Source of the DNA: Deltaproteobacteria bacterium
GTDB lineage: Bacteria > Desulfobacterota > JAENJC01
Direction of reading: 5' to 3'
DNA: 64,000 nucleotides
Assembly (NCBI GenBank): GCA_030646755.1
Contig: JAUSKU010000076.1
Span: 5,162 to 69,161, forward strand
The position numbers were made by a program, and so were the translations under genes. The notes beneath the pieces are model-generated. The model did not search any database. It was not told where the DNA came from and saw only the letters and a list, made by a program, of their open reading frames with translations. Positions 1 through 20,478 of the stretch are shown here, piece by piece; the stretch's first letter is position 1; the number at the start of each line of letters is the position of its first letter.

Positions 1-332
1 CCTCGACCTCAAGCATCAAGATAACAAGGTATTCAAACGACGAGATTGATATTCAGGCCGACATGGCCGAAAACGGCTTCCTTGTTCTTAGTGAGAAATA
101 CTACCCTGGTTGGAAGGCATACGTCGATGGTAAAGAGACAAATATCTTAAAGGCCAACTATATTATGAGGGCCCTCTACTTGTCTAAGGGATCGCATACG
201 GTAGAGTTTGTCTTTGATCCATGGGCATATAAAGTTGGGCTTCGGGTGAGCTCGGCTACATTCCTCTTCCTTATTGGAGCGGTGGTTTGGAGGGTGAGGG
301 AGAACAAGGTAAAGATAACAGTAGAGGTATAG
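1..332 (+). CDS. C-terminal fragment of a YfhO-family (GT-C) membrane glycosyltransferase-like protein; the gene starts upstream of the window
   Basis: The translation ...YYPGWKAYVDGKETNILKANYIMRALYLSKGSHTVEFVFDPW is the characteristic YfhO C-terminal motif. The frame is open to the window edge. Confidence 0.55.
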   Translation, partial: STSSIKITRYSNDEIDIQADMAENGFLVLSEKYYPGWKAYVDGKETNILKANYIMRALYLSKGSHTVEFVFDPWAYKVGLRVSSATFLFLIGAVVWRVRENKVKITVEV

Positions 333-350
333 GTAAAGGGAAAAAATAAA

Positions 351-590
351 ATGAAACGGTTCCTGAAAGTCATTTATGCAGGTTGGATGAAGTTCGCCCA
401 TATCCTGGGTTGGGTAAATACGAGGATAATCCTTACCCTTGTCTATCTCATTATATTTACCCCCCTTGCCCTTATCTTCAGGCTGATAGGAAAGGATCCG
501 ATGGATAGGCGACTTGAGAAAGGTAACAGCTATTGGGTAAAAAGGGAGCAAAAGGTCTTCAGGCAAGAGGATTACCGGAGGCAGTTCTGA
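351..590 (+). CDS. small two-TM membrane protein of the kind found next to NodU/CmcH carbamoyltransferases (SxtJ-like); hypothetical
   Basis: ATG at 351 preceded by an A/G-rich stretch. A hydrophobic 79-aa product lies immediately upstream of and overlapping the carbamoyltransferase gene. The family assignment is from memory of sxtJ/sxtK-like neighbours, not from a search. Confidence 0.4.
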   Translation: MKRFLKVIYAGWMKFAHILGWVNTRIILTLVYLIIFTPLALIFRLIGKDPMDRRLEKGNSYWVKREQKVFRQEDYRRQF

Positions 591-2506
591 GTAGTTACAT
601 ATTAGGCATCTCTGCTTTCTACCATGACTCCGCCGCCTGCCTTGTAAGGGACGGCGAGATCATAGCTGCTGCCCAAGAGGAGCGGTTTACAAGGAAGAAG
701 CACGACGCTGACTTTCCCCATAAGGCTATAGGTTACTGCCTTAAAGAGGCAGGTATAGGTATAGATAATGTTGACATCATTGCCTTCTACGACAAACCCT
801 TCATAAAGCTCGAACGGATACTTGAAACATACCTTTCTGTGGCACCCAGAGGGTGGCTTTCCTTTTTGACCGCAATGCCCGGATTATTAAAACAAAAGAT
901 GTGGGTCCCCCAGATTATCCAAAAAGAGCTGGGATATAGCGGTGAGATTATATTCTGCGAACACCATGAGGCCCATGCCGCATCCGCCTTTTATCCTTCC
1001 CCATTTGAAGAGGCGGCGATACTTACTATGGATGGAGTTGGTGAGTGGGCGACGTCAAGCATAGGTATAGGTAGAGGTAAAGATATAGAACTGCTGTATG
1101 AGCAGAGGTTTCCACATTCCTTGGGCCTCCTCTATTCAGCAATTACATACTACCTCGGTTTCAAGGTCAACAGCGGTGAATACAAGGTTATGGGGCTTGC
1201 GCCATATGGGGAGCCTGCATATAAAGACCTGATACTTAACGAGTTGATTGACCTCAAGGAAGACGGCTCTTTCAGGCTAAACATGAAATATTTCGGCTTC
1301 CTGGATACCCTGAGGATGACAAACAGGAATTTTGACAGACTGTTCGGCGCTCCGGCAAGAAAGCCTGAAACCAGGCTTGCACAACGTGAAATGGATATTG
1401 CAAGGTCCTTACAGGAGGCGACGGAAGAGATCATGCTCAGGATGGCAAGGCATGCCCATAAGATAACAGGAATGAAGAACCTGTGTCTTGCCGGAGGGGT
1501 AGCATTAAACTGCGTAGGTAACGGCCGGATTCTTAGAGAAGGGCCATTTGAGAATATCTGGATACAGCCTGCGGCAGGGGATGCAGGGGGGGCCTTGGGT
1601 GCAGCATTGTTTGGATGGTACAAGTATCTGGGGAATGATAGGATGGTTAGCAGTGTCACCCCCACCCCCACCCACCCCCGTCAAGGGGGAGGGGAAGAGA
1701 GAAAGGAAGAAGAAAGCCTCCCCTCCCTTGGCGGGAGGGGATTGAGGGGAGGGGGAGACTTCATGAAGGGCTCCTACCTCGGCCCCTCCTTTACGGATGA
1801 TGAGATAGAGGAGTTCTTGAAATCAAAGAACGCTCCATTTAAAAAAGTTTCGATCTCGAATATACCAAAAGAGACAGCAAGGCTACTTTCTGATGGCAAG
1901 GTTATCGGCTGGTTCCAGGGAAGGATGGAGTTCGGGCCGAGATCCCTGGGCGCAAGGAGTATCATAGGAGACGCCAGGAATCGGGAGATGCAATCGACCA
2001 TGAACCTCAAGATAAAGTTCAGGGAGTCGTTCCGCCCGTTTGCGCCTTCGGTTCTCCGGGAGGATGTGAACGAATGGTTTGAAATGGACTGCGACAGCCC
2101 ATATATGCTATTAGTTGCCCCCACTAGGGGAAGTAAGAGGATTCCTTTGACTGAAGAACAGGAAGGGCTTTTTGGCATCGAAAAACTCAATATCCCGAAA
2201 TCTGAAATACCGGCAGTTACGCATGTGGATTATTCTGCGAGGATACAGACGGTTCATAGGTATACAAATCCGCTCTATTATGATACGATAACTGAGTTTA
2301 AAAAACTCACAGGTTGTCCGGTGATAGTAAATACCTCCTTTAATGTAAGAGGAGAACCGATAGTCTGTACACCTGATGACGCATACAGGTGTTTTATGAG
2401 GACAAACATGGATAACCTCGTTATCGGCAGCTTTATTCTCGACAAAAAGGACCAGCCTGAATTTAAAGAAGATATGGATTGGCAAAAGGAGTTCGAGTTA
2501 GATTGA
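533..2506 (+). CDS. carbamoyltransferase, NodU/CmcH (HypF-like) family, carrying a ~35-aa in-frame low-complexity insertion; the exact start is uncertain
   Basis: ILGISAFYHDSAACLVRDGEIIAAAQEERFTRKKHD, the HEAHAASAF motif and a C-terminal YrdC-like region are typical of O-carbamoyltransferases. The ATG at 533 overlaps the upstream small ORF, so the true start may be later. Confidence 0.85.
   Translation: MGKKGAKGLQARGLPEAVLSSYILGISAFYHDSAACLVRDGEIIAAAQEERFTRKKHDADFPHKAIGYCLKEAGIGIDNVDIIAFYDKPFIKLERILETYLSVAPRGWLSFLTAMPGLLKQKMWVPQIIQKELGYSGEIIFCEHHEAHAASAFYPSPFEEAAILTMDGVGEWATSSIGIGRGKDIELLYEQRFPHSLGLLYSAITYYLGFKVNSGEYKVMGLAPYGEPAYKDLILNELIDLKEDGSFRLNMKYFGFLDTLRMTNRNFDRLFGAPARKPETRLAQREMDIARSLQEATEEIMLRMARHAHKITGMKNLCLAGGVALNCVGNGRILREGPFENIWIQPAAGDAGGALGAALFGWYKYLGNDRMVSSVTPTPTHPRQGGGEERKEEESLPSLGGRGLRGGGDFMKGSYLGPSFTDDEIEEFLKSKNAPFKKVSISNIPKETARLLSDGKVIGWFQGRMEFGPRSLGARSIIGDARNREMQSTMNLKIKFRESFRPFAPSVLREDVNEWFEMDCDSPYMLLVAPTRGSKRIPLTEEQEGLFGIEKLNIPKSEIPAVTHVDYSARIQTVHRYTNPLYYDTITEFKKLTGCPVIVNTSFNVRGEPIVCTPDDAYRCFMRTNMDNLVIGSFILDKKDQPEFKEDMDWQKEFELD
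1656..1758. repeat. G-rich palindromic MITE-like element, copy 1, in-frame inside the carbamoyltransferase CDS
   Basis: Module A (cacccccacccccacccacccccgtcaaggggagggg) plus module B (cccctcccttggcgggaggggattgaggggaggggg) are also found at 23002..23100 (reverse orientation) and 48081..48176. The element translates as SVTPTPTHPRQGGGEERKEEESLPSLGGRGLRGGGD, which is absent from homologues. Confidence 0.6.
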
Positions 2507-3543
2507 AGTTTAAAAATATACTGATAGGAATAACAATATCTGTTTTCAGTATACTGTTGTCCTTTGCCGTTGCGGAGATTGCTGTCCGCATTTTATATCC
2601 CGGCATAATACCGAGCACAAAGTACGACTGGAGCTCAAGGCATAAGGGATATAAGCTTGAGAAGCCTCATACCACCTTCAGGATTGTAGTCCTTGGAGAC
2701 TCTTTTACATTCGGACAAGGTGTTAGTAGGGATGAGACCTTTCCAAAGAGGCTGGAATCAATGCTCAACAGTTACGGCGGAAGAATCAGGTTTGAGGTAG
2801 TTAATTTAGGGTTTTGCGGGTTGGAAACCAGAGGAGAACTTGAGTTACTCACCCAGGCAGGGATTAATCCTGAGACTTGGCAGCCGGACGAGAGATACCG
2901 TGGGTTGGCATATCAGCCGGATCTGATAATACTTGAATATACCCTGAATGATTCTTCTACGAGTGGAAGGACGCTGGAACAGATAAAGAAGTTTGATGAC
3001 CAATGGAGGAGAGGAGATGTTGTCATAAGGCCCAATAACGGAGCATACAGCCTTCCTGTGCCTGCCAAAGTTGATAAATTTTTGACGGTAAATTCCAGAC
3101 TTTACCTCTTTTCCCTTGATAGATACAATCAGATATTGGGGAGGCTTGGCTTGAGGGAGGCGGGTGACTCTGCTATAAATAGTATGCTAAGCCGTTATGA
3201 AGACAGTTTCGATGGATGGGTAAATGTTAAACAATCATTGTCTGAAATGGCACAGGTTGCCAAAATGAATGATCTGCCTATAGTCTTGGCCATCTATCCC
3301 CAATTAATACAATTAGACAATTATCCTTTTAAAGGAATCCATCAAAAGGTAAAATGGGTAGGGGATGTCTGGGGATTCCATACCCTGGATCTATTTCCTG
3401 CGTTTGAAGGAAAGAACGGAGCCTCCCTTTGGGTCACTCCATCTGACGGGCACCCCAATGCCGATGCCCATGAAATAGCAGCAAAGGCAATATTCTATTA
3501 TCTTACAAAAGAAGGGTTGATCCCGTATCATAAGGGAGGATAG
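2503..3543 (+). CDS. SGNH/GDSL-family hydrolase (putative sugar O-acyl esterase/transferase), paralog A
   Basis: An N-terminal TM helix is followed by a RIVVLGDSFTFGQGV GDSL block. A TTG at 2503 overlaps the upstream stop (the ORF track extends it to 2479). The product is ~45% identical by eye to the 36509..37549 product. Confidence 0.7.
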   Translation: MKFKNILIGITISVFSILLSFAVAEIAVRILYPGIIPSTKYDWSSRHKGYKLEKPHTTFRIVVLGDSFTFGQGVSRDETFPKRLESMLNSYGGRIRFEVVNLGFCGLETRGELELLTQAGINPETWQPDERYRGLAYQPDLIILEYTLNDSSTSGRTLEQIKKFDDQWRRGDVVIRPNNGAYSLPVPAKVDKFLTVNSRLYLFSLDRYNQILGRLGLREAGDSAINSMLSRYEDSFDGWVNVKQSLSEMAQVAKMNDLPIVLAIYPQLIQLDNYPFKGIHQKVKWVGDVWGFHTLDLFPAFEGKNGASLWVTPSDGHPNADAHEIAAKAIFYYLTKEGLIPYHKGG

Positions 3544-3548
3544 ATAGT

Positions 3549-3707
3549 ATGGGCAAGCTCGCGATATTTAAAGAACTCTGGGGCTTTATGAAGGCCAGGA
3601 AGAAGTGGTGGCTTGGACCGATAATTCTATTGCTGCTTCTACTTGGCATTTTAATAGTCTTTACGGAAAGTTCGGCCTTGGCGCCATTTATTTATGCTAT
3701 CTTCTGA
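3549..3707 (+). CDS. 52-aa single-TM small protein (DUF5989-like), missed by the ORF track because it is under 60 aa
   Basis: ATG at 3549 sits 3 nt after the upstream stop. MGKLAIFKELWGFMKARKKWWLGPIILLLLLLGILIVFTESSALAPFIYAIF matches the conserved small protein commonly co-located with carbamoyltransferase/glycosyltransferase clusters. The assignment is from memory. Confidence 0.5.
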   Translation: MGKLAIFKELWGFMKARKKWWLGPIILLLLLLGILIVFTESSALAPFIYAIF

Positions 3708-3720
3708 GAAAGGAACTACA

Positions 3721-4593
3721 ATGAAGGTCATTATTATCGGAGCATCTGGTCAGGTAGGTGGGGCAATAATGCGCCTTGCGCCTAAGGATTGGGAAACTAC
3801 CGGGACATATAGCGGTAAGCCGAAGCCCGGTCTTATACATCTTGATGTCTCCAACAGGAAAGAGGTATTTGAGGTATTTGAAAAGGTCAGACCCGATGTG
3901 GCGATACTTTCAGCCGCATTTACAAATGTAGACCTATGCGAGACCGATAAGGAGCGGGCAGACGCCGTTAATGTCAGCGGCCCTCTTAATATCTGCGATG
4001 CATCTGTGAAACACGGTTCCAAGATGGTCTATATGTCTACTGATTACGTCTTTGACGGGGAAAACGGGCCTTACAGGGAAGATGATGCTCCGAATCCTCT
4101 CGGGTATTATGCCTGGACAAAGCTTGAAGGGGAACGGATAACGGCCTTTACACCTAATCATCTGATAATAAGGACGACAGGCGTCTACAGCGCTGACCCT
4201 GATTCCTTGAACTTTGTCATGCAGGTGATAAAGAGGCTTGGGGCAGGGGAATCTATGAGGGTTCCGAGCGATCAGTACGGCACCCCCACCCTTGCCGACA
4301 ACCTTGCTGAGGGGATTTTGACCCTTTTAACTCTCGGAAAGACCGGCATTTTTAACGTGGCCGGTTCAGACTTTATGGACAGGTATTCGTTTTCACTCCT
4401 TATTGCAGATATATTCGGTCTTGATAAAACCCTTATTACCCAGATAGACACTCCTTCCCTCGGACAAAAGGCAAGAAGGCCTTTAAGGGCAGGGCTTATA
4501 GTTGAGAAGATCGAAAAAGAGGCCGGAATAAAGATGGTTGGAGCAAGGGAGGGTTTAATGTTTGTCAAGGAGAGGCTCAATGCTTCACGGTAA
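3721..4593 (+). CDS. RmlD-like NAD(P)-dependent sugar nucleotide reductase (dTDP-4-dehydrorhamnose reductase family)
   Basis: [16 protein letters not shown] Rossmann motif and a Y..WTK catalytic pair ([10 protein letters not shown]). The ATG at 3721 has an AAGGA RBS. No rmlABC genes are nearby. Confidence 0.75.
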
Positions 4594-5359
4594 GAAAATA
4601 GTAGTTGTCATGCCTGCATATCATGCGGAAAAGACCCTTGAACAGACTTACAGGGAGATACCTTTTGATGTCGTTGATGACGTCGTTCTTGTTGATGATG
4701 CGAGCAGGGACAATACTGTAAAAAAGGCAAGAGATCTCGGTATTAAGCACGTCATAGTACATGAAAAGAACATGGGTTACGGCGGAAATCAAAAGACCTG
4801 CTATAAGAAGGCATTGGAGCTGGGGGCGGAGATTGTGGTTATGCTTCATCCCGATTATCAATATACTCCTAAGCTGATAACCCCTATGGCATCCATGATA
4901 GCCTCCGGTGAATTTGACGTTGTTCTCGGCTCAAGGATATTAGGCACAGGCGCCTTAAAAGGCGGTATGCCCCTTTATAAGTATATCTCCAATAGGTTTC
5001 TTACGTTAATAGAAAATATCCTTCTTGGATATAAGCTTTCTGAATACCACACAGGCTACAGGGCATTCAGCCGTGAGATTCTGGAGAGGCTTCCTCTCCA
5101 CGAGAATTCAAATGACTTTGTCTTTGACAACCAGATGCTTGCCCAAGCCGTCTTCTTCGGATACAGAATCGGCGAAATAACTTGCCCTACTAAGTATTTT
5201 ACAGATGCATCTTCAATAAATTTCAGGAGAAGCGTTACCTATGGCTTTGGAGTCCTTTTGACGGCCATTAAGTTCAGGATACACAGGATGGGACTTATAG
5301 AGTTTCCTATGTTTACTAAAACAGATAAGAACATGTCAAAAATGGGAGAGTTCAAATAA
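4580..5359 (+). CDS. GT2 glycosyltransferase, ArnC/DPM1-like polyprenyl-phosphate sugar synthase type
   Basis: [18 protein letters not shown]...[12 protein letters not shown]...DYQYTP; the ATG at 4580 follows an AAGGAGAGG RBS. Confidence 0.8.
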
Positions 5360-7955: not shown

Positions 7956-7980
7956 CAGGCCCCGCATAGGAGATGTTGCC

Positions 7981-9615: not shown

Positions 9616-9618
9616 GTT

Positions 9619-11687: not shown

Positions 11688-13062
11688 TAAGATCCTACTG
11701 CTGAACCCGCCCGGTAAAAAGTTATATGTCCGGGATTATTACTGCAGCAAGATATCTAAAAGCAACTACCTCTTTCATCCCGTTGACCTACTGATGCTCA
11801 GCGGCAGACTGGCTGAACGGTATGAGGTGCGGCTGATAGATGCCATTGCCGACAGAATAGATGATGCCTCCTGCTTAACTATGATTGATGCCATCTCTCC
11901 AGATGTCATAATTTCATTGATTGGCGCCGTATCTCTTGATGAGGACCTGCCGTTTATAAAAAGACTTGCAAAAGATGGACGGCGTATCGTGGTAAGCGGG
12001 GATATCTCACTGGAAAACACAGAGAAATGGTTGGACGGCTATCCCTTTATAGATGCTGTCATCCTTGACTTCACCTCGGATGACATAATTCATTACCTGA
12101 AAGGTAATCACAGCGCAATCAGCGGCATGGTTTACAGAACAGTGAAGGGGATAAGCAAGACCAATCCGGCAAGACCTAAGAATGAGGCTTTTTTCTTGCC
12201 TATACCGAGACACGACCTATTCTCATCTAAAAACTACCGTTTCCCTTTCGTAAGGCACAAACGGTTTGCTACTGTACTTACTGATTATGGCTGTCCGTTC
12301 AGGTGCTCCTTCTGTGTCATGAGCACCCTCGGTTACAGATACAGAGAGGTTGAAAATGTAATCGAGGAGCTCAAAACATTAAAGAGACTTGGCAAGAAGG
12401 AGATCTTTTTTATAGACCAGACCTTCGGTATAAATAAAAAACGCATCCTTGACTTATGTCAAAGAATGAAGGAGGAGGGGTTCAATCTAGGCTGGGTATG
12501 TTATTCAAGGGTGGACTTAGTAGTTGAAGAGGTGATAAAGGGGATGAAGGAGGCTGGCTGTCACACTATAATCTTCGGCGTAGAGTCTGCCAGTGAGGAG
12601 ATACTGAAAAAATATCAGAAGGGTTACAATAAGACCCAGATAAGGGATGCTTTCAGGCTTTGCAAAAAATACAATATTAGAACAGTTGCTACATTCATCC
12701 TCGGCCTGCCTGAGGAGACGGAAGAAACCGCCAATGAGACGATAGAGTTTTTGAAGGAGTTAGATTGCGACTTCGCCTCATTTAATGTGGCGGTTCCCAG
12801 GATGAATACTCCCTTAAGACAAAAGGCTATCCGGGAGGGGCTCATAACCTCTGACCTGGAGATTATGGACCAGGGAGGCGCTTCCATAGCCATGCCGACC
12901 AGGCACTTGACTATGGAACAGGTTCAGGATCTGAAAAAAAAGGCGATCAGGGGGTTCTATCTGAGACCCTCATATCTATGGAGAAGGTTGAAAGGCGTAT
13001 CGTCTTTGTATGAGCTTAAGGAACAGGTTTCCGAGGGGTTAACTTTGCTGAAGGGGATATAG
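11680..13062 (+). CDS. B12-binding domain radical SAM enzyme (class B), 1 of 3 in tandem
   Basis: N-terminal cobalamin-binding Rossmann-like domain (KILLLNPPGKK...) followed by a CPFRCSFC radical SAM cysteine triad. Confidence 0.8.
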   Translation: MPDKILLLNPPGKKLYVRDYYCSKISKSNYLFHPVDLLMLSGRLAERYEVRLIDAIADRIDDASCLTMIDAISPDVIISLIGAVSLDEDLPFIKRLAKDGRRIVVSGDISLENTEKWLDGYPFIDAVILDFTSDDIIHYLKGNHSAISGMVYRTVKGISKTNPARPKNEAFFLPIPRHDLFSSKNYRFPFVRHKRFATVLTDYGCPFRCSFCVMSTLGYRYREVENVIEELKTLKRLGKKEIFFIDQTFGINKKRILDLCQRMKEEGFNLGWVCYSRVDLVVEEVIKGMKEAGCHTIIFGVESASEEILKKYQKGYNKTQIRDAFRLCKKYNIRTVATFILGLPEETEETANETIEFLKELDCDFASFNVAVPRMNTPLRQKAIREGLITSDLEIMDQGGASIAMPTRHLTMEQVQDLKKKAIRGFYLRPSYLWRRLKGVSSLYELKEQVSEGLTLLKGI

Positions 13063-13064
13063 AT

Positions 13065-14489
13065 ATGGCGCGCGTAGCATTTGTACAGAATATGGCATTT
13101 GAATACCTTGGAGTTATGTACATATCCGCCATGCTGAAAAAGCACGGACACAAGGTGGAGATGTTCATTGTAGGGAAGAACGAAGAGAAGACGATAGAAG
13201 AGATTTCATCCTTCAAGCCAGACCTGGTCGGATTTCCATGTACTACGGGGGTGCACAGGTGGGCTCTTAAGTTCGCTGGGAAGATGAAGTTGAGGGTGCC
13301 ATGTAAGGTGATCTTCGGAGGTGCCCATGCAACATACTTCCCTGAAGTCATCAACGACCCCCAGGTAGACATCATCTGTCGAAGCGAAGGGGAGTATGCA
13401 GCCCTTGAGATAGCCGATAAGATAGACAGGGGTTCCGACATCTCAGACACCTTAAACTGTTGGGTGAAGGTGAACGGGTTGGTTGTAAAGAACGACCAGC
13501 GCCCCCTCGTTGAAAACCTCGATGAACTTCCGTTCCCTGACAGGGAACTATATATAGGCAAATACCCATACCTCAAGAGGTCGCAGAAGGCATTCATAGG
13601 CGGAAGGGGTTGCCCCTTTGACTGCACATTCTGTTTTAACCATGCCCTTATTAAGCTATACAAGGGAAAGGGCAAGGTGGTGCGATACAGGAGCGTAGAC
13701 AACCTTATCGCTGAAATTAAAGAGGTCAGGGATAGATACGGTCTGAGAACGGTGTACATGCAGGACGACACCTTCATCCTCAACAAGAAGTGGGTTGCGG
13801 AGTTTGCGGAAAAATACAAGAGGGAGGTAGGGCTGCCGTTTGTCTGCCTTATAAGGGCTGATCTCGCGGACGAGGAGATGATAAAGAAACTTGCTGAGGC
13901 GGGATGCAAGAATGTCTTCTTTGGTGTTGAGGCAGGCTCCGAAGACCTGCGCAATTCCCTACTGAAAAAGAAGGTAACCGATGAGGAGATTAGGAGTGTT
14001 GCTGCACTTCTTAAAAAATATGGGATGAAGTTCAGGACCTACAACATGCTTGGGCTGCCTGGAGAGACCCTCGAAGACGCATTCAGGACTGTAACGATCA
14101 ATGCAGAGATAGGGACGGATTATCCGTGGTGTGCACTTTTCCACCCCTTTCCAGGAACTGAACTGGCGGAATATGCAAAGGAAAAGGGGCTTCTTGATGC
14201 ATCCGTGGATACCGCAAACCCTTCATTTTTCAAGGACAGTATCATAAAGTCCGAACACAAGAGGGAGCTTGTTAATCTCCAGAAGCTCTTTTTCTATGGT
14301 GTGAAGTTTCCAAGGAGCATGCCGCTGATAAAAAGGTTGATACGTCTGAGGCCCAATATCTTTTTTGACTTAGCCTTCCTTGCCAGTTACGCTTGGTGCT
14401 ATCTGCTCAGTGAAAACCTCACATTAAGAGAGATGCTCTCCGTTGGTTTCAGGAACGTCAAGGGGTTCTTCTTCTCAAAAGGGGACTGA
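13065..14489 (+). CDS. B12-binding domain radical SAM enzyme (class B), 2 of 3
   Basis: MARVAFVQNMAFEYLGVMYISAMLKKHGHKVE B12-like domain; GGRGCPFDCTFC radical SAM motif. Confidence 0.8.
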   Translation: MARVAFVQNMAFEYLGVMYISAMLKKHGHKVEMFIVGKNEEKTIEEISSFKPDLVGFPCTTGVHRWALKFAGKMKLRVPCKVIFGGAHATYFPEVINDPQVDIICRSEGEYAALEIADKIDRGSDISDTLNCWVKVNGLVVKNDQRPLVENLDELPFPDRELYIGKYPYLKRSQKAFIGGRGCPFDCTFCFNHALIKLYKGKGKVVRYRSVDNLIAEIKEVRDRYGLRTVYMQDDTFILNKKWVAEFAEKYKREVGLPFVCLIRADLADEEMIKKLAEAGCKNVFFGVEAGSEDLRNSLLKKKVTDEEIRSVAALLKKYGMKFRTYNMLGLPGETLEDAFRTVTINAEIGTDYPWCALFHPFPGTELAEYAKEKGLLDASVDTANPSFFKDSIIKSEHKRELVNLQKLFFYGVKFPRSMPLIKRLIRLRPNIFFDLAFLASYAWCYLLSENLTLREMLSVGFRNVKGFFFSKGD

Positions 14490-14507
14490 CACATACCCCT
14501 TCATGCA

Positions 14508-15962
14508 TTGTCTGGAGGTAAATCTATTTTGAAGACTATCGTATTTGTGAGTCCTCCGCTAACCTTAAGGGAAAGGTACGGTGTAGACCGTCAGAGCGGC
14601 GGGGAGACAATGCCGCTGGGCCTCGCCTTTCTTGCAGGGGTTACGCGGCGCGAAGGTTACGAGACGTATATAGTAGATGCGGAGGTCCTTGGCCTTACTC
14701 CTGAGGGAGCGTCTGAGGCCATAATGCGGCATAACCCGGATGTGGTCGGTTTTACTGCGGTAACGATATCGGTACACCATGCCGCTACCGTAGCCAGACT
14801 AATAAAGAACATTGATAATAAGGTTATAACTCTCGTGGGCGGACATCACATATCTGCGGTCCCCAGTGAGACGATGAAGCTTTTCCCTGAGTTCGACATA
14901 GGCGTGCTTGGTGAAGGAGAAGTAACTATTGTGGAGCTCCTTGACGCCCTGAAAAATGGCCGCAACCTGAAAGATGTGAAGGGCCTTATCCTGAGGGAAG
15001 GAGATGGCTTTTACTTAACAGGGAAAAGAGAGCGCTTGAAAGAGCTTGACTCGCTGCCCTTGCCTGCATGGGACCTCCTTCCAAAAATCTCCGAATACTA
15101 CTGCCCTCCCGTGCACACGGTAAAGAAGCTGCCTGCAACCAACCTGGTCACCTCAAGGGGGTGTCCCGGACAGTGTGTCTTCTGCGCTAGGACCGTATAT
15201 GAAAACAAGGGCACGTATTTCACTGCGGCCCGGGTCATGGAGATGATCAAGGACCTGTATCATAATTACGGCATCAGGGAGATACAGTTCAGGGACGACA
15301 ACTTTACCGTCTTCAGGAAAAGGCTTCTGGAGTTATGCGAAAATTTGAAGGAGGCAAGGCTCGACCTGGCATGGTCCTGTACGGGAAGGGTGGATACTGT
15401 TACGCCTGAGACACTTAAGGCTATGAAAGAAGCAGGGTGCTGGCAGATATGGTACGGTATAGAGAGCGGCTCACAGAGGATTCTTGACCTTGTGCAAAAG
15501 GGGACCACTATAGAGGGAATAAGAGAAGCAGTGAGGTGGACAAAGGATGCCGGTATAAACCCTTGCGGTTTCTTTATAATCGGACATCCAGGTGAGACAA
15601 AGGAGTCGATAAATGAGACCATAGATTTTGCCGTAAACCTCGATCTTGCAGAGTGCCACGCAAGCTTTATGACTCCCTTCCCTGGTTCGGAGCTTTATAT
15701 TACTTACGAAAAATACGGCGCCTTTGAAAACGACTGGAAAAGATTAAACGGATGGACCCCCATGTTTGTTCCATACGGCCTTACTAAAGAAGAGATGAAG
15801 TATTATTCGAACAAATTTCACAAGAGGTTCTTCTTTAGACCGAAAATAATAATCTCATATCTCTTTAAGATACGGAGCTGGAAACACCTTGCTGTTTACA
15901 TGCAGGGATTCCGGGCGCTCCTGAGCTTCCTTAGCAAGAAAGAAAAGAATACGGCCCAATAA
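14508..15962 (+). CDS. B12-binding domain radical SAM enzyme (class B), 3 of 3. The start is TTG 14508, or TTG 14529 with a GGAGGT RBS.
   Basis: ILKTIVFVSPPLT...; SRGCPGQCVFC motif. Confidence 0.8.
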   Translation: MSGGKSILKTIVFVSPPLTLRERYGVDRQSGGETMPLGLAFLAGVTRREGYETYIVDAEVLGLTPEGASEAIMRHNPDVVGFTAVTISVHHAATVARLIKNIDNKVITLVGGHHISAVPSETMKLFPEFDIGVLGEGEVTIVELLDALKNGRNLKDVKGLILREGDGFYLTGKRERLKELDSLPLPAWDLLPKISEYYCPPVHTVKKLPATNLVTSRGCPGQCVFCARTVYENKGTYFTAARVMEMIKDLYHNYGIREIQFRDDNFTVFRKRLLELCENLKEARLDLAWSCTGRVDTVTPETLKAMKEAGCWQIWYGIESGSQRILDLVQKGTTIEGIREAVRWTKDAGINPCGFFIIGHPGETKESINETIDFAVNLDLAECHASFMTPFPGSELYITYEKYGAFENDWKRLNGWTPMFVPYGLTKEEMKYYSNKFHKRFFFRPKIIISYLFKIRSWKHLAVYMQGFRALLSFLSKKEKNTAQ

Positions 15963-16025
15963 CTGATATCGGAGGTAATTAATATTAAACTGAGATATTC
16001 CTTTATCATAATATCCCTGTCCGTT

Positions 16026-17858
16026 GTGGTGTTGTATGCCGACACGATATCTCTGTTCTTCTATTACGACGACTTTGAGCGCCTCAGGGATGTAATAGCA
16101 GGCCAGGGTAATCCTTTTTTTATCTTTACACCTATTTATCGTCCCGGGGTTGCCTACTTCACCCCTATCTTTTATTTGTTTTTTGGCTCCTGTTATAAGC
16201 TCTTCGGTTTTAACCCGACCCCCTTTCACTTAATGAGTATAATCACCCATATCGTCAATTCAAGCCTTGTATGCTATTTTACCTTCCTTCTAACCAGGCA
16301 GAGATTTTTGGCAATGACAGCGGGAATCGTGTTTGCTATAAGTTTTAATATTGTTGATGCCGTTATCTGGCCATCGGCCTATGCAGACCCGATAGCCTTC
16401 CTGTTTTCTATCACGGCCCTCATAGGATTTTATAAATATTTAAAAACACCCAAATCGGCTTATTACGTCATAACCATTATATTTTTCATCCTTGCGCTTT
16501 CTGCAAAGATACAAGCCATGTTTCTACCGATAGGCTTGTTCGTGACAGAACTATATTACTTGACCACCGTGCAACAGAAGTTCAAAACCGCAGTGTTGAT
16601 CAAGTATCTGCCATTTATCATATTGAACCTCGTTTATCTGCTTCTTTTAAAGATCTTTGCCCCTCCCCTCGATGCAGGCTCAATAATTAACCTGAGCACG
16701 ATTTTATCGAACATTATTATAATCCCCCTGCTCTATATAATCCCGGAAGGGATATTGCCGCATTCTATCTTATATCCTCTTATAATTGATATTGGTCTGT
16801 TTGTTATACTACTCGTATTATTTTTCCGGCATTCAGCTAAGAATAACCTAATATGGTATGGGCCTGCCTTGCTGTTTATGGGGATATTGGCGCTGGTCCC
16901 TCTTAAGTGGAACTTCCCTTTGTATCCAGACCCAATGAATGAGAGCATCAGACACCGTCTTTACCTCGGTAACCTTGGATTTTCTATACTCGCAGGGGTG
17001 ATTATTCATGAGATATATCTTTTGACCTCGAATAGACTTACAAGGAGGGCGCTCTTTGTTTGCGGCCTGTTTGTCTTTCTTGCTCTAAATCTGAGTCAGT
17101 TATACAGGATAAAATCAGCATATATAAAAGTGACCTCGGATACCGAAAAGTCGCTTAATCAACTCAGAGAGTTGATTACTCAACTTCCGATTGAAAAAAG
17201 AAATATCTATATAGTGAATTTTCCACCTAACCAAGGGTTTGGAGTATCTATACAGAAACTCTTTCTGAATATAAAGGGGCTGAATCTTGGATTATGGCCT
17301 ACCGAGATACCTATAGGGTTGCCGGAAGATAGCCTTCAGATCTATTTGCATCTCAATGGCAACATATATGACCGCAATAGCAATGTTAGGAATGTTGCTT
17401 CAACTGCATGGGAGCATTTATACTCCGGCCAGTTTCTTCTGCTGACGGGGAAACAAGCAGATGCGGTGGAAGAGTTGCGAATGGCTTCAACAAATAGCTC
17501 ATGGGGTGATGGGAAAATTCATCATATTTTAGGTGTCACCTATCTTGGATTAGGGGAAAAAGAGCAGGCAATCGAAGAATTAAACAAGGCAATATTGAAT
17601 AATAGACGATATCCTGAAATTTATTCTTTACTTGGGACGTTGTATTTTGAAAAAGGAGATATTAACAGGGCTATTGAAAACCTTGGGCTTGCATTAAAAT
17701 CTAATCCTGCGGATTTCAAGATAATGGAGGATCTGGCTCTTATATATGAGGCTAAAGGAGAGATCCAGAAAGCAAGAATTTTATTTAAAAAGGCATTGTC
17801 ATTTGAGAGCAGACCAGAGTATAGGCGACAGATTGAGGAAAAGTTGCACAAGCACTGA
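16026..17858 (+). CDS. TMTC-like membrane protein: DUF1736-type multi-TM domain plus C-terminal TPR repeats (putative GT-C O-mannosyltransferase-like)
   Basis: The membrane domain aligns by eye with the 57474 and 59292 products (FHLMSIITHIVNSSLVCYFTFLL vs NWHPLTMISYALDYSIWGL...). The C-terminal 150 aa are TPR-like (GDGKIHHILGVTYLGLGEKEQAIEELNKAI...). GTG/alternative start. Confidence 0.55.
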   Translation: MVLYADTISLFFYYDDFERLRDVIAGQGNPFFIFTPIYRPGVAYFTPIFYLFFGSCYKLFGFNPTPFHLMSIITHIVNSSLVCYFTFLLTRQRFLAMTAGIVFAISFNIVDAVIWPSAYADPIAFLFSITALIGFYKYLKTPKSAYYVITIIFFILALSAKIQAMFLPIGLFVTELYYLTTVQQKFKTAVLIKYLPFIILNLVYLLLLKIFAPPLDAGSIINLSTILSNIIIIPLLYIIPEGILPHSILYPLIIDIGLFVILLVLFFRHSAKNNLIWYGPALLFMGILALVPLKWNFPLYPDPMNESIRHRLYLGNLGFSILAGVIIHEIYLLTSNRLTRRALFVCGLFVFLALNLSQLYRIKSAYIKVTSDTEKSLNQLRELITQLPIEKRNIYIVNFPPNQGFGVSIQKLFLNIKGLNLGLWPTEIPIGLPEDSLQIYLHLNGNIYDRNSNVRNVASTAWEHLYSGQFLLLTGKQADAVEELRMASTNSSWGDGKIHHILGVTYLGLGEKEQAIEELNKAILNNRRYPEIYSLLGTLYFEKGDINRAIENLGLALKSNPADFKIMEDLALIYEAKGEIQKARILFKKALSFESRPEYRRQIEEKLHKH

Positions 17859-20418: not shown

Positions 20419-20478
20419 AAGTGGTCAGGGATCAGGGGTCAGTAAAATCCGACCACCGGCCACTAACATGGGGTCATT

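What the first reader, a model, noticed from the sequence alone, without database searches (positions are those of the whole stretch)
351..17858. ~17.5 kb co-directional Arn-like envelope-glycan operon with unusually heavy tailoring (carbamoyl, O/N-methyl, three class-B radical SAMs)
Genes from 351 to 17858 are all on the plus strand with overlapping or near-overlapping stop/start codons (TTGA, TAATG and ATGA junctions), so they are probably co-transcribed. Their content reproduces the logic of the Arn pathway: an ArnC/DPM1-like GT2 (4580..5359) would make a polyprenyl-phosphate sugar, and two ArnT-like GT-C transferases (6330..7955, 7981..9615) would move it to a periplasmic acceptor. A GT9 heptosyltransferase-family gene (9619..10797) points to an LPS-core/lipid A context. 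Superimposed on this are an RmlD-like 4-ketoreductase, a NodU-type O-carbamoyltransferase flanked by two tiny membrane proteins (351..590 and the unannotated 52-aa ORF at 3549..3707), an SGNH acyl-esterase/transferase, two zinc-ribbon SAM methyltransferases, three consecutive cobalamin-dependent radical SAM enzymes and a TMTC-like TPR transferase. I do not recognise this combination as any described pathway. The simplest reading is synthesis of a lipid-linked, carbamoylated, multiply methylated (including C-methylated at unactivated carbons) sugar that decorates lipid A, protein or a polysaccharide. The complete lack of formyltransferase, aminotransferase and decarboxylase genes argues it is not Ara4N.
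Basis: partly seen in the sequence, partly recalled or inferred. Interest (0 to 1): 0.8.

Follow-up and report, generated by a model that had tools for sequence, protein, structure and literature searches.

The report
Mosaic surface-sugar decoration gene cluster
This is a real, tightly packed gene cluster from an uncultured diderm bacterium. It looks like a patchwork of separable modules for decorating cell-surface sugars rather than one new pathway, and its most interesting part is an unstudied, widely conserved pairing of a heptosyltransferase-like enzyme with a radical-SAM enzyme.

Summary
Sixteen + strand genes run from 1 to 17858 with overlapping or short junctions, and nearly every family call was confirmed: SxtJ, carbamoyltransferase, SGNH, DUF5989, RmlD-type reductase, a DPM/AglJ/ArnC-like GT2, two Zn-ribbon methyltransferases, two PMT_2 GT-C enzymes, GT9, three radical-SAM enzymes and a GT-C+TPR protein.

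Corrections:
- The cluster is cut at the left edge; GT4 and an 801-aa YfhO lie upstream.
- Only two of the three radical-SAM proteins pass the B12-domain threshold. The third is closest to the cobalamin-independent dehydratase AprD4.
- The GT-C fold matches STT3, DPY19 and ArnT about equally.
- The small-protein/carbamoyltransferase/GDSL set has the same family content as saxitoxin sxtI-J-K-L.

Synteny argues against a single fixed pathway. Close relatives shuffle, invert or lack modules. Only [GT-C]-GT9-(MT)-rSAM is conserved. It stands alone in Geobacter-like and Nitrospirota genomes, and 33 of 58 metagenome loci have GT9 directly upstream of the rSAM.

Best reading: one allele of a hypervariable envelope-glycan locus built from polyprenyl-phosphate-sugar/GT-C modules plus tailoring. 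It is not Arn. I rate it a new variant of a known kind. The product and acceptor are unknown.

The parts
1..332 (+). 3' end of a YfhO-family GT-C gene that runs off the left edge of the window. The full gene is 801 aa and is preceded by a GT4 gene.
   Evidence: Pfam YfhO, 45 bits against a cutoff of 28.5. Locus L046 from the same sample shows GT4-YfhO-SxtJ with overlapping junctions.
351..590 (+). SxtJ-family small membrane protein (79 aa, one hydrophobic stretch long enough for a hairpin). First gene of the carbamoylation cassette.
   Evidence: PF19588, 52.6 bits. Hydropathy.
533..2506 (+). NodU/SxtI-type O-carbamoyltransferase. The start is uncertain: TTG 533, or CTG 587 five nt after a GGAGG. 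It carries a Gly/Glu/Pro-rich insert between the N and C domains.
   Evidence: Carbam_trans_N 335 bits and Carbam_trans_C 245 bits. The NodU equivalog scores 140 bits against a cutoff of 1000.
2479..3543 (+). Membrane-anchored SGNH/GDSL hydrolase or transferase. It corresponds in family to sxtL. The likely start is TTG 2503.
   Evidence: Lipase_GDSL_2, 44 bits. N-terminal TM helix. A paralogue lies at 36509-37549(-).
3549..3707 (+). DUF5989 (SxtK-like) 52-aa single-TM protein.
   Evidence: PF19451, 83.2 bits against a cutoff of 27. The gene is 90% identical in relative L128.
3694..4593 (+). RmlD-type NDP-4-keto-6-deoxyhexose reductase.
   Evidence: RmlD_sub_bind 212.7 bits. TIGR01214 216.6 bits against a cutoff of 224. 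STDYVFDG and YxxxK motifs are present.
4562..5359 (+). Soluble or peripheral GT2, predicted to be a polyprenyl-phosphate sugar synthase. The ATG at 4580 is the likely start.
   Evidence: Glycos_transf_2, 72.9 bits. Best NCBIfam matches are AglJ, PpgS, Dol-P-hexose transferase and ArnC. Best PDB match is Pyrococcus DPM synthase 5mlz (3e-10), then ArnC.
5359..6333 (+). SAM methyltransferase MT1, with an N-terminal Zn ribbon and a C-terminal TM anchor.
   Evidence: Methyltransf_23, 103 bits. TM helix at residues 285-303. It travels with GT2 and GTC1 as an inverted unit in L129.
6330..7955 (+). GT-C glycosyltransferase GTC1 (PMT_2 family) with a C-terminal soluble domain of about 120 aa.
   Evidence: PMT_2, 34.3 bits against a cutoff of 26.1. 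It is 25% identical to GTC2 over the full length.
7981..9615 (+). GT-C glycosyltransferase GTC2, the first gene of the conserved core module.
   Evidence: PMT_2, 51.5 bits. AF2 model pLDDT 86 with a GT-C_A fold matching STT3, DPY19 and ArnT. The E42-x-D44 loop motif is invariant. Only about 21 close homologues were found.
9619..10797 (+). GT9 (heptosyltransferase-family) GT-B glycosyltransferase.
   Evidence: Glyco_transf_9, 94 bits. The Hep I, II and III equivalogs are all below cutoff. PDB matches are 3tov, WaaF and WaaC. A GT9 gene lies directly upstream of rSAM1 homologues in 33 of 58 loci.
10797..11687 (+). SAM methyltransferase MT2 with an N-terminal Zn ribbon and no TM helix.
   Evidence: Methyltransf_23, 90 bits. 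It is present between GT9 and the rSAM in most close relatives and in L132.
11680..13062 (+). Radical-SAM enzyme rSAM1. It has an AprD4/HpnJ-like architecture, and its B12 domain is below the Pfam threshold.
   Evidence: Radical_SAM 93.6 bits; B12-binding 16.9 bits against a cutoff of 32.1. AprD4 6fd2 matches at 2e-30 over nearly the full length. At least 1910 homologues score E<=1e-60.
13065..14489 (+). B12-binding radical-SAM enzyme rSAM2.
   Evidence: B12-binding 60.7 bits and Radical_SAM 96 bits. It is 89-93% identical in L004 and L127.
14508..15962 (+). B12-binding radical-SAM enzyme rSAM3. It is paired with the downstream GT-C+TPR gene.
   Evidence: B12-binding 82.8 bits and Radical_SAM 92.2 bits. 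It is absent from L004. Its best paralogue is 48921-50435, which also precedes a GT-C gene.
15984..17858 (+). TMTC-like GT-C plus C-terminal TPR protein. The proposed start is ATT 15984. NCBI annotates only 514 aa.
   Evidence: TPR families. The FFYYDDFE motif after TM1 is invariant. PMT_2 hits 3 of 11 family members. It aligns over the full length with the 10-TM+TPR protein at 59292-61298. The AF2 membrane domain is low confidence.

Best explanation
The region is one allele of a hypervariable envelope-glycan assembly and decoration locus. The host is an uncultured diderm bacterium, labelled 'Deltaproteobacteria bacterium' in NCBI. The locus is built from separable modules rather than one linear pathway.

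Module A (off-window GT4 and YfhO, then 351-3707) is a carbamoylation cassette: SxtJ, O-carbamoyltransferase, a membrane-anchored SGNH protein and DUF5989. It has the same family content as sxtI-J-K-L. I infer that the two small membrane proteins hold the soluble carbamoyltransferase at the inner membrane, so that it carbamoylates a hydroxyl of a lipid-linked sugar or glycan using carbamoyl phosphate. The SGNH domain would act on the periplasmic side.

Module B (3694-7955) is RmlD, GT2, membrane-anchored MT1 and GTC1. GT2 loads a sugar onto polyprenyl phosphate, MT1 methylates at the membrane, and after flipping GTC1 transfers the sugar to a periplasmic acceptor. This is the three-component Gtr/Arn/PpgS logic.

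Module C (7981-14489) is the conserved core: GTC2, GT9, MT2 and rSAM1, with rSAM2 in some relatives. The GT-B enzyme GT9 adds a heptose-type sugar on the cytoplasmic face. MT2 and the AprD4-like rSAM1 tailor that sugar or its precursor. GTC2 adds a further residue in the periplasm.

Module D (14508-17858) pairs a B12 radical-SAM enzyme with a TMTC-like GT-C+TPR transferase.

Shown: gene families, folds, module boundaries, conservation patterns and diderm context. Inferred: every substrate, the order of steps, and the acceptor. My guess for the acceptor is LPS core or O-polysaccharide, with roughly even odds against protein.
For: -
- GT2's nearest characterised relatives are all polyprenyl-phosphate glycosyltransferases.
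- GTC2 has a confident GT-C_A fold with an invariant ExD loop motif.
- Modularity: GTC2-GT9-MT2-rSAM1 stands alone in Geobacter/Geoanaerobacter MAGs and in a Deltaproteobacteria MAG. A membrane protein-GT9-rSAM1 trio stands alone in Ca. Magnetoovum.
- Relatives L004, L127, L128 and L129 reshuffle the other genes. The carbamoylation cassette is absent from L127. RmlD is absent from L127 and L129. GT2-MT1-GTC1 is inverted as a block in L129. rSAM3-TPR is absent from L004.
- The GT9-rSAM1 linkage is strong: 33 of 58 loci have GT9 directly upstream, and 17 of 18 have GT9 within 5 kb.
- The neighbours point to an envelope context: a Wzx-type flippase and GT4 upstream in L127; an MsbA-like ABC transporter and a PMT_2 gene beside GT9-rSAM1 in L061 and L064-L066; Wzx, GT4 and a sulfatase-family gene in L132.
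- MlaFED is in the window.
- sxtI, J, K and L are listed consecutively in the published sxt gene table (PMC2679770).
- The same design recurs in Chloroflexota locus L012: GT2, PMT_2, SxtJ-like, carbamoyltransferase, small TM protein, SGNH, an SDR and methyltransferases.
- GC is lower across the GT-C genes, 0.41-0.43 against 0.47-0.52 in the flanks. This resembles many surface-glycan loci.
Against: - There is no biochemical or structural data for any member.
- No dedicated small flippase (GtrA, ArnE/F) lies inside 1-17858.
- Only one GT2 is present for four or more GT-C enzymes, so donors must also come from elsewhere.
- GT9, RmlD and all the rSAMs fall below every equivalog cutoff, so the sugar identities are guesses.
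- Tight gene overlaps could still mean that, in this organism, all the products act on one glycan.
- The TPR-bearing GT-C and the STT3/DPY19-like fold fit a protein acceptor as well as they fit LPS.
- The left end of the locus was not seen.
Confidence: 0.6

Rival explanations
1. This is the first reader's model: a single co-transcribed Arn-like pathway. All 16 genes cooperate to make one lipid-linked sugar that is carbamoylated, O/N-methylated and C-methylated. The two ArnT-like GT-C enzymes then move it onto lipid A or the LPS core.
For: - Junctions overlap throughout and there is no intergenic terminator.
- A GT2 plus GT-C logic is present.
- GT9 and MlaFED indicate a diderm host.
- The Chloroflexota locus L012 also combines a carbamoyltransferase, GT2, PMT_2 and methyltransferases.
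Against: - Modules are lost, swapped or inverted independently in relatives that share 54-93% identity.
- The core module works without any adjacent GT2, carbamoyltransferase or RmlD in Geobacter-like and Nitrospirota genomes.
- The ArnC and ArnT models are not met.
- The GT-C fold is no closer to ArnT than to STT3 or DPY19.
- rSAM1 is AprD4-like and is not demonstrably B12-dependent.
Confidence: 0.15
2. This is a protein glycosylation system. The GT-C enzymes (STT3/PMT/TMTC-like, one with a TPR substrate-binding domain) would O- or N-glycosylate periplasmic, S-layer or pilin proteins. The donors would be polyprenyl-phosphate-linked sugars made by the AglJ/DPM-like GT2. The methyl, carbamoyl and radical-SAM enzymes would tailor the glycan.
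For: - The best NCBIfam match for GT2 is AglJ, and for GTC2 it is archaeal STT3.
- The top Foldseek matches are STT3, AglB, PglB and DPY19.
- The GT-C+TPR architecture is that of the eukaryotic TMTC protein O-mannosyltransferases (my background knowledge). It is repeated four or more times in the window, and a TMEM260-like gene is also present.
- In loci L068-L079, YfhO-GT2-rSAM1-like genes follow pilin-like and T2SS-F genes.
Against: - All of these matches are far below family cutoffs.
- GT9, the MsbA-like transporter and the Wzx/GT4 neighbours point to LPS or polysaccharide.
- No candidate acceptor protein gene lies in the cluster.
- GTC1 and GTC2 lack TPRs.
Confidence: 0.2
3. This is a small-molecule (natural product) cluster. 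The sxtIJKL-like cassette, the B12 radical-SAM enzymes (as in aminoglycoside, phosphonate or RiPP pathways) and the methyltransferases would make a secreted glycosylated metabolite rather than an envelope component.
For: - SxtJ, SxtK, the carbamoyltransferase and the GDSL protein occur together in the saxitoxin cluster.
- The rSAMs match AprD4, PhpK and ApyD distantly.
Against: - Pfam/NCBIfam scans of the 16 genes show no PKS, NRPS, amidinotransferase, cyclitol, aminoglycoside-core or precursor-peptide family.
- Four or more GT-C membrane transferases, YfhO, GT4 and Wzx are hallmarks of envelope glycan assembly.
- sxtJ/K-type genes also sit beside a carbamoyltransferase in the non-toxin locus L012.
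Confidence: 0.05

Closest known systems
Three-component extracytoplasmic glycosylation systems: polyprenyl-phosphate sugar synthase, flippase and GT-C. Examples are Gtr O-antigen glucosylation, ArnC/ArnE-F/ArnT, PpgS/Rv3779, CsbB/YfhO, and the GT136 pentofuranose systems (Kelly et al. 2024, PMC11127046).
   Same: A DPM/AglJ/ArnC-like GT2 sits next to PMT_2-family GT-C enzymes that carry a C-terminal soluble domain. An auxiliary SDR (RmlD-type) lies beside the synthase. The whole sits inside, or next to, a Wzx/GT4-type polysaccharide locus. The module is gained, lost and inverted as a block (L129).
   Different: No GtrA, ArnE/F or MATE flippase lies inside the visible cluster. There is one GT2 for four or more GT-C enzymes. 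A membrane-anchored methyltransferase is inserted between the synthase and the GT-C. Radical-SAM enzymes and a carbamoylation cassette are attached, and neither is part of any described three-component system.
Arn (Ara4N lipid A modification) pathway
   Same: A GT2 plus GT-C division of labour in a diderm host. ArnT is among the structural matches of GTC2 (TM about 0.5).
   Different: The ArnC equivalog scores 23 bits against a cutoff of 529. No ArnT model is hit. No ArnA, ArnB, ArnD, ArnE or ArnF families are present. STT3 and DPY19 match the fold at least as well.
Saxitoxin sxtI-sxtJ-sxtK-sxtL genes: O-carbamoyltransferase, two small proteins of unknown function, and a GDSL lipase
   Same: All four families are present and contiguous: Carbam_trans_N/C, PF19588 SxtJ, PF19451 DUF5989 and GDSL/SGNH.
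   Different: The gene order differs: J-I-L-K here against I-J-K-L. The context is glycan assembly, not alkaloid biosynthesis. Homology of the SGNH protein to SxtL was tested only at superfamily level. The role of J and K is unknown in both systems.
LPS inner-core heptosyltransferases (WaaC, WaaF, WaaQ; GT9). The Pseudomonas aeruginosa core, which carries a carbamoylated heptose, is recalled from memory as a precedent.
   Same: The GT9 GT-B fold family. PDB matches are WaaF and WaaC. The host is diderm. An MsbA-like transporter sits beside GT9-rSAM in some loci.
   Different: The protein is below all Hep I, II and III equivalog cutoffs (97 against 135, 96 against 170, 66 against 185 bits). It is obligately paired with a radical-SAM enzyme, which is not a feature of any characterised Waa cluster that I know of.
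AprD4 (radical-SAM diol-dehydratase for aminoglycoside C3' deoxygenation) and the class B (cobalamin) radical-SAM enzymes acting on sugars or lipids (GenK, Fom3, HpnJ, HpnP/R)
   Same: rSAM1 aligns with AprD4 over about 365 residues (E 2e-30). All three rSAMs have the N-terminal Rossmann-like domain plus a radical-SAM core. rSAM2 and rSAM3 pass the B12-binding threshold.
   Different: rSAM1 has the canonical CX3CX2C motif, whereas AprD4 has CX3CX3C. No conserved AprD3-like reductase partner is present. All NCBIfam equivalogs are missed by a wide margin (HpnJ 151-213 bits against a cutoff of 578). The reaction type, whether methylation, dehydration or rearrangement, is unknown.
TMTC, TMEM260 and PMT protein O-mannosyltransferases (GT-C with TPR or other luminal domains)
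   Same: A multi-TM domain with an acidic DD motif after TM1, followed by C-terminal TPRs. PMT_2 hits appear in 3 of 11 family members.
   Different: The window protein itself has no Pfam GT-C hit. The AF2 membrane domain is low confidence. The protein is bacterial and is paired with a B12 radical-SAM gene.

Membership tests
Arn (Ara4N) pathway | ArnC: undecaprenyl-phosphate Ara4FN transferase equivalog | tested here: not met
   NF007986 scores 23.4 bits against a cutoff of 529. PDB ArnC matches only at E 1e-4.
Arn (Ara4N) pathway | An ArnT-specific GT-C (GT83) | tested here: not met
   GTC1 has no NCBIfam hit. GTC2 hits only archaeal STT3 and LA_3751/2, both weakly. Foldseek ranks ArnT below STT3 and DPY19.
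Arn (Ara4N) pathway | ArnA (decarboxylase/formyltransferase), ArnB (aminotransferase) and ArnD (deformylase) are present | tested here: not met
   None of these families appears among the 16 genes or in the 3.6 kb upstream. The rest of the genome was not seen.
Three-component polyprenyl-P-sugar / GT-C glycosylation | A GT2 polyprenyl-phosphate glycosyltransferase | tested here: inconclusive
   The top matches are AglJ, PpgS, Dol-P-hexose transferase, DPM synthase 5mlz and ArnC. All are below equivalog cutoffs. Activity was not tested.
Three-component polyprenyl-P-sugar / GT-C glycosylation | A GT-C fold transferase with an acidic first-loop motif | tested here: met
   PMT_2 is above its cutoff for GTC1 and GTC2. 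The AF2 model has pLDDT 86 and a GT-C_A fold. E42-x-D44 is invariant.
Three-component polyprenyl-P-sugar / GT-C glycosylation | A dedicated flippase (GtrA, ArnE/F or MATE) | tested here: not met
   No such family lies in 1-17858. A Wzx/MurJ-type gene lies upstream of GT4-YfhO in relative L127. The window's own upstream region was not seen.
sxtIJKL-type carbamoylation cassette | A carbamoyltransferase with N and C domains | tested here: met
   PF02543 scores 335 bits and PF16861 scores 245 bits.
sxtIJKL-type carbamoylation cassette | Adjacent SxtJ and SxtK/DUF5989 small proteins | tested here: met
   PF19588 scores 52.6 bits against 24.4. PF19451 scores 83.2 bits against 27.
sxtIJKL-type carbamoylation cassette | An SxtL-type GDSL lipase | tested here: inconclusive
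   GDSL/SGNH superfamily membership is met. No direct comparison with SxtL was possible.
LPS heptosyltransferases (GT9) | The GT9 family domain | tested here: met
   PF01075 scores 94 bits against a cutoff of 22. PDB matches are 3tov, WaaF and WaaC.
LPS heptosyltransferases (GT9) | Equivalog-level match to Hep I, II or III | tested here: not met
   TIGR02195 scores 97.4 against 134.6. TIGR02201 scores 96.4 against 170.2. TIGR02193 scores 65.9 against 185.3.
LPS heptosyltransferases (GT9) | An ADP-heptose donor and a Kdo2-lipid A acceptor | not testable with these tools
   This needs an enzyme assay. No gmhA, hldE or waaA genes are in the window.
RmlD (dTDP-4-dehydrorhamnose reductase) | Equivalog score and catalytic motifs | tested here: inconclusive
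   TIGR01214 scores 216.6 bits against a cutoff of 224.05. STDYVFDG and YxxxK are present. RmlA, RmlB and RmlC are not in the cluster, but an RmlC-like gene is adjacent in L004.
Class B (cobalamin-dependent) radical-SAM enzymes | An N-terminal B12-binding domain plus a CX3CX2C radical-SAM core | tested here: met
   This holds for rSAM2 (60.7 bits) and rSAM3 (82.8 bits) against a cutoff of 32.1. The motifs are CPFDCTFC and CPGQCVFC.
Class B (cobalamin-dependent) radical-SAM enzymes | The same feature, tested for rSAM1 | tested here: not met
   B12-binding scores 16.9 bits against 32.1. Only 3 of 120 homologues carry PF02310. The best solved relative is AprD4, which is cobalamin-independent. The N-terminal domain is nevertheless homologous to that of rSAM3.
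Class B (cobalamin-dependent) radical-SAM enzymes | Methyltransferase activity (C-methylation) | not testable with these tools
   No equivalog is reached. The family also includes ring-contraction, cyclase and dehydratase enzymes.
TMTC/PMT-like GT-C+TPR transferases | A GT-C membrane domain with a loop-1 acidic motif, plus C-terminal TPRs | tested here: inconclusive
   The TPRs are met. The FFYYDDFE motif is invariant. PMT_2 hits only 3 of 11 homologues. The AF2 membrane domain has pLDDT about 50. hhalign against the GTC2 family gives no signal.

The most novel reading that the evidence does not exclude
The conserved [GT-C]-GT9-(methyltransferase)-radical-SAM module is a previously unrecognised envelope-glycan pathway. 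It is found from Desulfobacterota to Nitrospirota and Poribacteria. In this reading, a radical-SAM enzyme performs oxygen-independent chemistry (deoxygenation, C-methylation or rearrangement) on a heptose- or Kdo-type core sugar, or on its lipid-linked precursor. The recurrent B12-rSAM/GT-C gene pairs, three of them in this window, would mark a general strategy of radical tailoring of polyprenyl-phosphate-linked sugars before periplasmic transfer.
Probability: 0.25. Interest if true: 0.75.

Novelty: new variant of a known kind. Interest (0 to 1): 0.5.

Why it matters
Surface glycans control phage, predator and host recognition. Their chemistry in uncultured anaerobic diderm bacteria is almost unknown.

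This locus shows a familiar architecture, in which lipid-phosphate sugar donors are used by periplasmic GT-C transferases. Here that architecture carries enzyme types rarely linked to envelope glycans: radical-SAM enzymes and a saxitoxin-type carbamoylation cassette.

Two leads come out of it that can be tested:
1. A heptosyltransferase-family enzyme is tightly coupled to an AprD4-like radical-SAM enzyme in many metagenome loci across several diderm phyla. This could reveal new LPS-core chemistry in anaerobes.
2. The sxtJ/sxtK small proteins have had no assigned function since 2008. Here they sit in a glycan context, which suggests they tether carbamoyltransferases to the membrane.

If the region is only a patchwork of ordinary decoration modules, it is still a useful catalogue entry, but not a new kind of system.

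Tried and rejected
1. Structure of the GT-C+TPR protein. The AF2 model was poor in the membrane domain (pLDDT 61.7 overall). Foldseek returned only TPR proteins. hhalign of its family against the GTC2 family gave no signal. Its GT-C status therefore rests on the conserved motif, on PMT_2 hits in 3 of 11 homologues, and on a paralogue alignment.

2. Extending the locus to the left. Look-ups with P0025, SxtJ and RmlD returned only short Logan contigs. The 83-kb NCBI contig is not in the index, so only 3.6 kb upstream was seen.

3. Rfam and tRNA scans of the window found nothing.

4. The promoter and terminator scan was indistinguishable from shuffled sequence.

5. Extra conserved cysteines in rSAM1 (C260, C274, C294) looked like a possible auxiliary Fe-S site. 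They are shared with AprD4, so nothing can be claimed.

6. Literature. No paper mentions DUF5989. Nothing links GT9 with radical-SAM enzymes in LPS work. G. sulfurreducens GSU1512-1514 (hypothetical, methyltransferase, heptosyltransferase family) are co-regulated in one RNA-seq study, but I could not check their homology, so this stays an unverified lead.

7. A plasmid database search with rSAM1 gave only a 29% identical hit.

8. The naive ORF caller mis-called genes in GC-rich loci as antisense ORFs (families F12, F18, F32, F35). Neighbour statistics therefore rely on tblastn hits.

9. The natural-product reading was considered and rejected, because Pfam/NCBIfam scans of the 16 genes show no scaffold-forming enzyme families.

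Full report

Yes. ORF listing and translation show an unbroken series of + strand genes from the left edge of the window to 17858. Junctions run from a 58-nt overlap to a 63-nt gap.

Pfam and NCBIfam scans confirm almost every family call:

| Coordinates | Assignment | Key score |
|---|---|---|
| 351-590 | SxtJ | 52.6 bits (cutoff 24.4) |
| 533/587-2506 | NodU-type carbamoyltransferase, both domains | E 8e-100 and 5e-73 |
| 2479-3543 | Membrane-anchored GDSL/SGNH protein | 44 bits |
| 3549-3707 | DUF5989 | 83 bits |
| 3694-4593 | RmlD-type reductase | TIGR01214 216.6 (cutoff 224) |
| 4562-5359 | GT2 | 72.9 bits |
| 5359-6333, 10797-11687 | Methyltransf_23 with N-terminal CxxC...CxxC ribbons | 103 and 90 bits |
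| 6330-7955, 7981-9615 | PMT_2 GT-C proteins | 34.3 and 51.5 bits |
| 9619-10797 | GT9 | 94 bits |
| 11680-15962 | Three radical-SAM proteins | see below |
| 16026-17858 | Polytopic protein with C-terminal TPRs | TPR families |

The 52-aa ORF is therefore a genuine gene. The RmlD-type reductase carries the STDYVFDG and YxxxK motifs. The best matches of the GT2 are polyprenyl-phosphate glycosyltransferases: AglJ, PpgS, Dol-P-hexose transferase and ArnC.

**2. Corrections to the observation**

(a) The cluster is truncated by the window. Positions 3-332 are the C-terminus of a YfhO-family GT-C. A contig from the same sample (L046) shows GT4 (373 aa) and YfhO (801 aa) immediately upstream, with overlapping junctions.

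(b) Strand alone does not delimit the cluster. The + strand run continues to 33133 through a TIGR03960/TIGR03936 radical-SAM fusion, GalT, RNase G, KsgA, CarD, TatC and others. The 3' border at 17858 is justified by synteny instead. In relative L004 the rSAM2 gene abuts that housekeeping block directly. In L129 the block is on the other strand.

(c) Only rSAM2 and rSAM3 pass the Pfam B12-binding threshold (60.7 and 82.8 bits against 32.1). rSAM1 scores 16.9 bits.

(d) The GT-C+TPR gene most likely starts at ATT 15984, not at the GTG the ORF finder used or the internal ATG NCBI used for its 514-aa product. A GGAGG lies 8 nt upstream. The extension restores a first TM helix that is conserved in all homologues. 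The 88%-identical homologue has a Met exactly at that position.

The promoter and terminator scans do not differ from shuffled sequence and find no intergenic terminator. Co-transcription is plausible but unproven.

**3. Source and context**

Identical proteins are recorded in NCBI as 'MAG... [Deltaproteobacteria bacterium]' on an 83,430-bp contig with locus tags Q7T53_. An identical Logan contig comes from SRR13727527. The window also encodes MlaFED, so the organism is diderm. No tRNA or Rfam features are present.

**4. The locus is a mosaic**

GTC2 has only about 21 close homologues among 5.8 billion proteins, all from metagenomes. Their neighbourhoods are informative.

*Stand-alone core.* The four genes GTC2-GT9-MT2-rSAM1 stand alone, flanked by unrelated genes, in uncultured Geobacter and Geoanaerobacter MAGs and in a Deltaproteobacteria MAG (44-63% identity). 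Geobacter sp. L1geo lacks MT2. A 525-aa membrane protein-GT9-rSAM1 trio sits between Rnf and chemotaxis genes in Ca. Magnetoovum, a member of Nitrospirota.

*Closer relatives (54-93% identity) reshuffle everything else:*
- L004 has GT2-B12 rSAM-PMT_2-RmlC-like-RmlD-GT2-GTC1-GTC2-GT9-MT2-rSAM1-rSAM2. It lacks rSAM3, the TPR gene, MT1 and, in the part held, the carbamoylation cassette.
- L127 has Wzx-GT4-YfhO-GT2-(MT-GT2 fusion)-MT-MT-PMT_2-GTC2-GT9-MT-rSAM1-rSAM2. It has no carbamoylation cassette and no RmlD.
- L128 keeps DUF5989-RmlD-GT2 but has other methyltransferases and an extra B12 rSAM.
- L129 has GTC2-GT9-MT2-rSAM1 followed by an inverted GT2-MT1-GTC1 block.

The window therefore holds one allele of a hypervariable locus. 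It is made of separable units:
- A: (GT4, YfhO), SxtJ, carbamoyltransferase, SGNH, DUF5989.
- B: RmlD, GT2, MT1, GTC1.
- C: GTC2, GT9, MT2, rSAM1 (and rSAM2 in some relatives).
- D: rSAM3, GT-C+TPR.

GC falls to 0.41-0.43 over the GT-C genes, against 0.47-0.52 in the flanks.

**5. The conserved pair**

A metagenome scan with an rSAM1 alignment found 291 relatives, of which 80 were kept.
- tblastn shows a GT9 gene directly upstream of the rSAM in 33 of 58 loci with enough upstream sequence.
- It is directly downstream in 4 of 53.
- It is within 5 kb in 17 of 18 loci with 5 kb on both sides.

The rSAM1 family has at least 1910 members at E<=1e-60. Named examples come from Ca. Magnetobacterium, Ca. 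Magnetoovum and Poribacteria. Only 3 of the best 120 carry a Pfam B12-binding hit.

Recurrent neighbours are glycan-assembly genes:
- GT4.
- PMT_2 GT-C.
- An MsbA-like ABC transporter, in the order GT9-ABC-rSAM-PMT_2-GT9 in L061 and L064-L066.
- Asparagine synthase, Wzx, and a sulfatase/EptA-type protein.
- In one clade, YfhO-GT2 downstream of pilin-like genes.

I found no paper describing this pairing.

**6. What the enzymes resemble**

*GT2.* The best solved relative is Pyrococcus Dol-P-Man synthase (3e-10), followed by ArnC (1e-4).

*GTC2.* It has no PDB sequence hit, but the AF2 model is confident (pLDDT 86). The model matches STT3/AglB/PglB, DPY19, ArnT (TM about 0.5), ALG9/12 and AftA/B. 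This is a GT-C_A fold with an invariant E42-x-D44 loop motif, and it is no closer to ArnT than to the protein-modifying enzymes.

*GT9.* It matches 3tov, WaaF and WaaC but misses all heptosyltransferase equivalog cutoffs.

*rSAM1.* It aligns with AprD4, the cobalamin-independent diol-dehydratase that deoxygenates an aminoglycoside sugar, over about 365 residues (2e-30). rSAM1 keeps the canonical CX3CX2C motif. Its N-terminal domain is homologous to the B12 domain of rSAM3.

*All three rSAMs.* Each hits HpnJ, PhpK, BchE and ApyD models far below cutoff. The reaction type is open. 'C-methylation' is only one possibility.

*GT-C+TPR protein.*
- It has an invariant FFYYDDFE motif after TM1.
- PMT_2 hits 3 of 11 homologues.
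- It aligns over its full length with another 10-TM+TPR protein in the window.
- Its AF2 membrane domain is unreliable.

**7. The carbamoylation cassette**

The published sxt gene table lists sxtI (carbamoyltransferase), sxtJ, sxtK and sxtL (GDSL lipase) consecutively. J and K are of unknown function and are proposed to act with SxtI (PMC2679770 and PMC2684587).

The window's SxtJ, carbamoyltransferase, SGNH and DUF5989 genes have the same four-family content. A Chloroflexota locus (L012) has MT-GT2-PMT_2-GT2-SxtJ-like-carbamoyltransferase-small TM protein-SGNH-SDR-sugar C-methyltransferase. So the cassette recurs next to GT2/GT-C glycan genes in a distant phylum.

The cassette is present in L128 and absent in L127, so it behaves as an optional decoration.

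**8. Most likely mechanism (inferred)**

- Module B works as a three-component-type system (Kelly et al. 2024, PMC11127046). GT2 loads a sugar on polyprenyl phosphate. The membrane-anchored MT1 may methylate it. GTC1 transfers it in the periplasm. RmlD supplies or modifies a 6-deoxyhexose.
- In module C, GT9 adds a heptose-type residue on the cytoplasmic face. MT2 and rSAM1 tailor it or its precursor. GTC2 adds a periplasmic residue.
- In module A, the carbamoyltransferase is tethered by the two small membrane proteins and carbamoylates a lipid-linked sugar. The SGNH domain acts outside the membrane.
- Module D is an independent B12-rSAM/GT-C pair.

The acceptor is unresolved. GT9, the MsbA-like and Wzx neighbours, and the Mla genes favour LPS core or O-polysaccharide. 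The TPR domains and the STT3/DPY19-like fold keep protein glycosylation alive.

**9. Comparison with the known, and novelty**

The locus works like the three-component polyprenyl-phosphate-sugar/GT-C systems. It fails the membership tests for Arn: ArnC scores 23 bits against 529, no ArnT model is hit, and there is no ArnA, ArnB or ArnD. It meets the family content of the sxtIJKL cassette.

Its GT9, RmlD and radical-SAM proteins are family members but not equivalogs of any characterised enzyme. I rate it a new variant of a known kind.

The part most worth following up is the widespread, uncharacterised GT9-radical-SAM coupling. Second is the recurrent B12-rSAM/GT-C pairing, which occurs three times in this window.

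**10. Score**

Interest is 0.5. The cluster is real, unusual in composition and undescribed. However, the 'single exotic pathway' that motivated the original 0.8 is not supported. The chemistry remains unknown, and the overall architecture is a familiar one for surface-glycan diversity.

Noticed in passing
window 48921-52363 (+): There is a second 'B12 radical-SAM then GT-C' pair. A 504-aa B12-rSAM (30% identical over its full length to rSAM3, E 1e-54) overlaps the start of a 643-aa TMEM260-like GT-C (PF11028, 146 bits). With rSAM3 and the TPR GT-C, and with rSAM-after-GT-C pairs in Nitrospirota loci L014 and L016-L018, this pairing looks recurrent.
   Followed up: partly
window 34444-39487 (-): A PMT_2+TPR GT-C (37553-39487) is followed by a 346-aa paralogue of the cluster's SGNH protein. 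The paralogue has the same N-terminal TM helix and FRIVVLGDS block but gave no Pfam hit at 1e-5. A 639-aa 8-TM protein of unknown family follows. This may be another GT-C/SGNH decoration unit.
   Followed up: partly
window 57474-61298 (+): Two tandem paralogues (64% identical) each have about 10 TM helices, C-terminal TPRs and an FVNWDDPTY loop motif, which is TMTC-like. The cluster's TPR protein aligns with one of them over 577 residues. Counting these, the 64-kb window encodes at least eight GT-C-type membrane proteins.
   Followed up: partly
window 15962-16031: The GT-C+TPR gene probably uses a non-canonical ATT start at 15984. A GGAGG lies 8 nt upstream, and the 88%-identical homologue has a Met at that position. 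NCBI annotates a truncated 514-aa product that lacks the first TM helix and the DD motif.
   Followed up: yes
window 533-602: The carbamoyltransferase has no ATG near its conserved N-terminus (SSYILGISAFYHDSAA). The candidate starts are TTG 533, which overlaps sxtJ by 58 nt, and CTG 587, which lies 5 nt after a GGAGG.
   Followed up: partly
window ~1650-1760: The carbamoyltransferase carries a low-complexity Gly/Glu/Pro/Arg-rich insert of about 35 aa between its N and C domains. The insert coincides with an inverted repeat on the minus strand at 1703-1741.
   Followed up: no
window 17911-22984 (+): A fused TIGR03960 B12-type radical-SAM/TIGR03936 protein (835 aa) is followed by GalT and RNase G. 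The block is conserved at 79-86% identity in relatives L004 and L129, and it marks the fixed border of the variable glycan locus.
   Followed up: partly
L068-L079 (metagenome loci): In one clade, rSAM1 homologues (about 51% identical) lie in the order T2SS-F, pilin-like (N_methyl) genes, YfhO, GT2, rSAM1-like, MT2-like, rSAM3-like. No GT9 is adjacent. This hints at pilin or another protein as the acceptor in that lineage.
   Followed up: no
L127 5209-6672 and L128 2671-4158: Close relatives encode a methyltransferase-GT2 fusion protein (487-495 aa) right after the orthologue of the window's GT2. This suggests a functional link between methylation and GT2 chemistry.
   Followed up: no
window 41579-44645 (-): A MlaD-MlaF-MlaE (outer-membrane lipid asymmetry) operon is present. 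It indicates a diderm envelope.
   Followed up: yes
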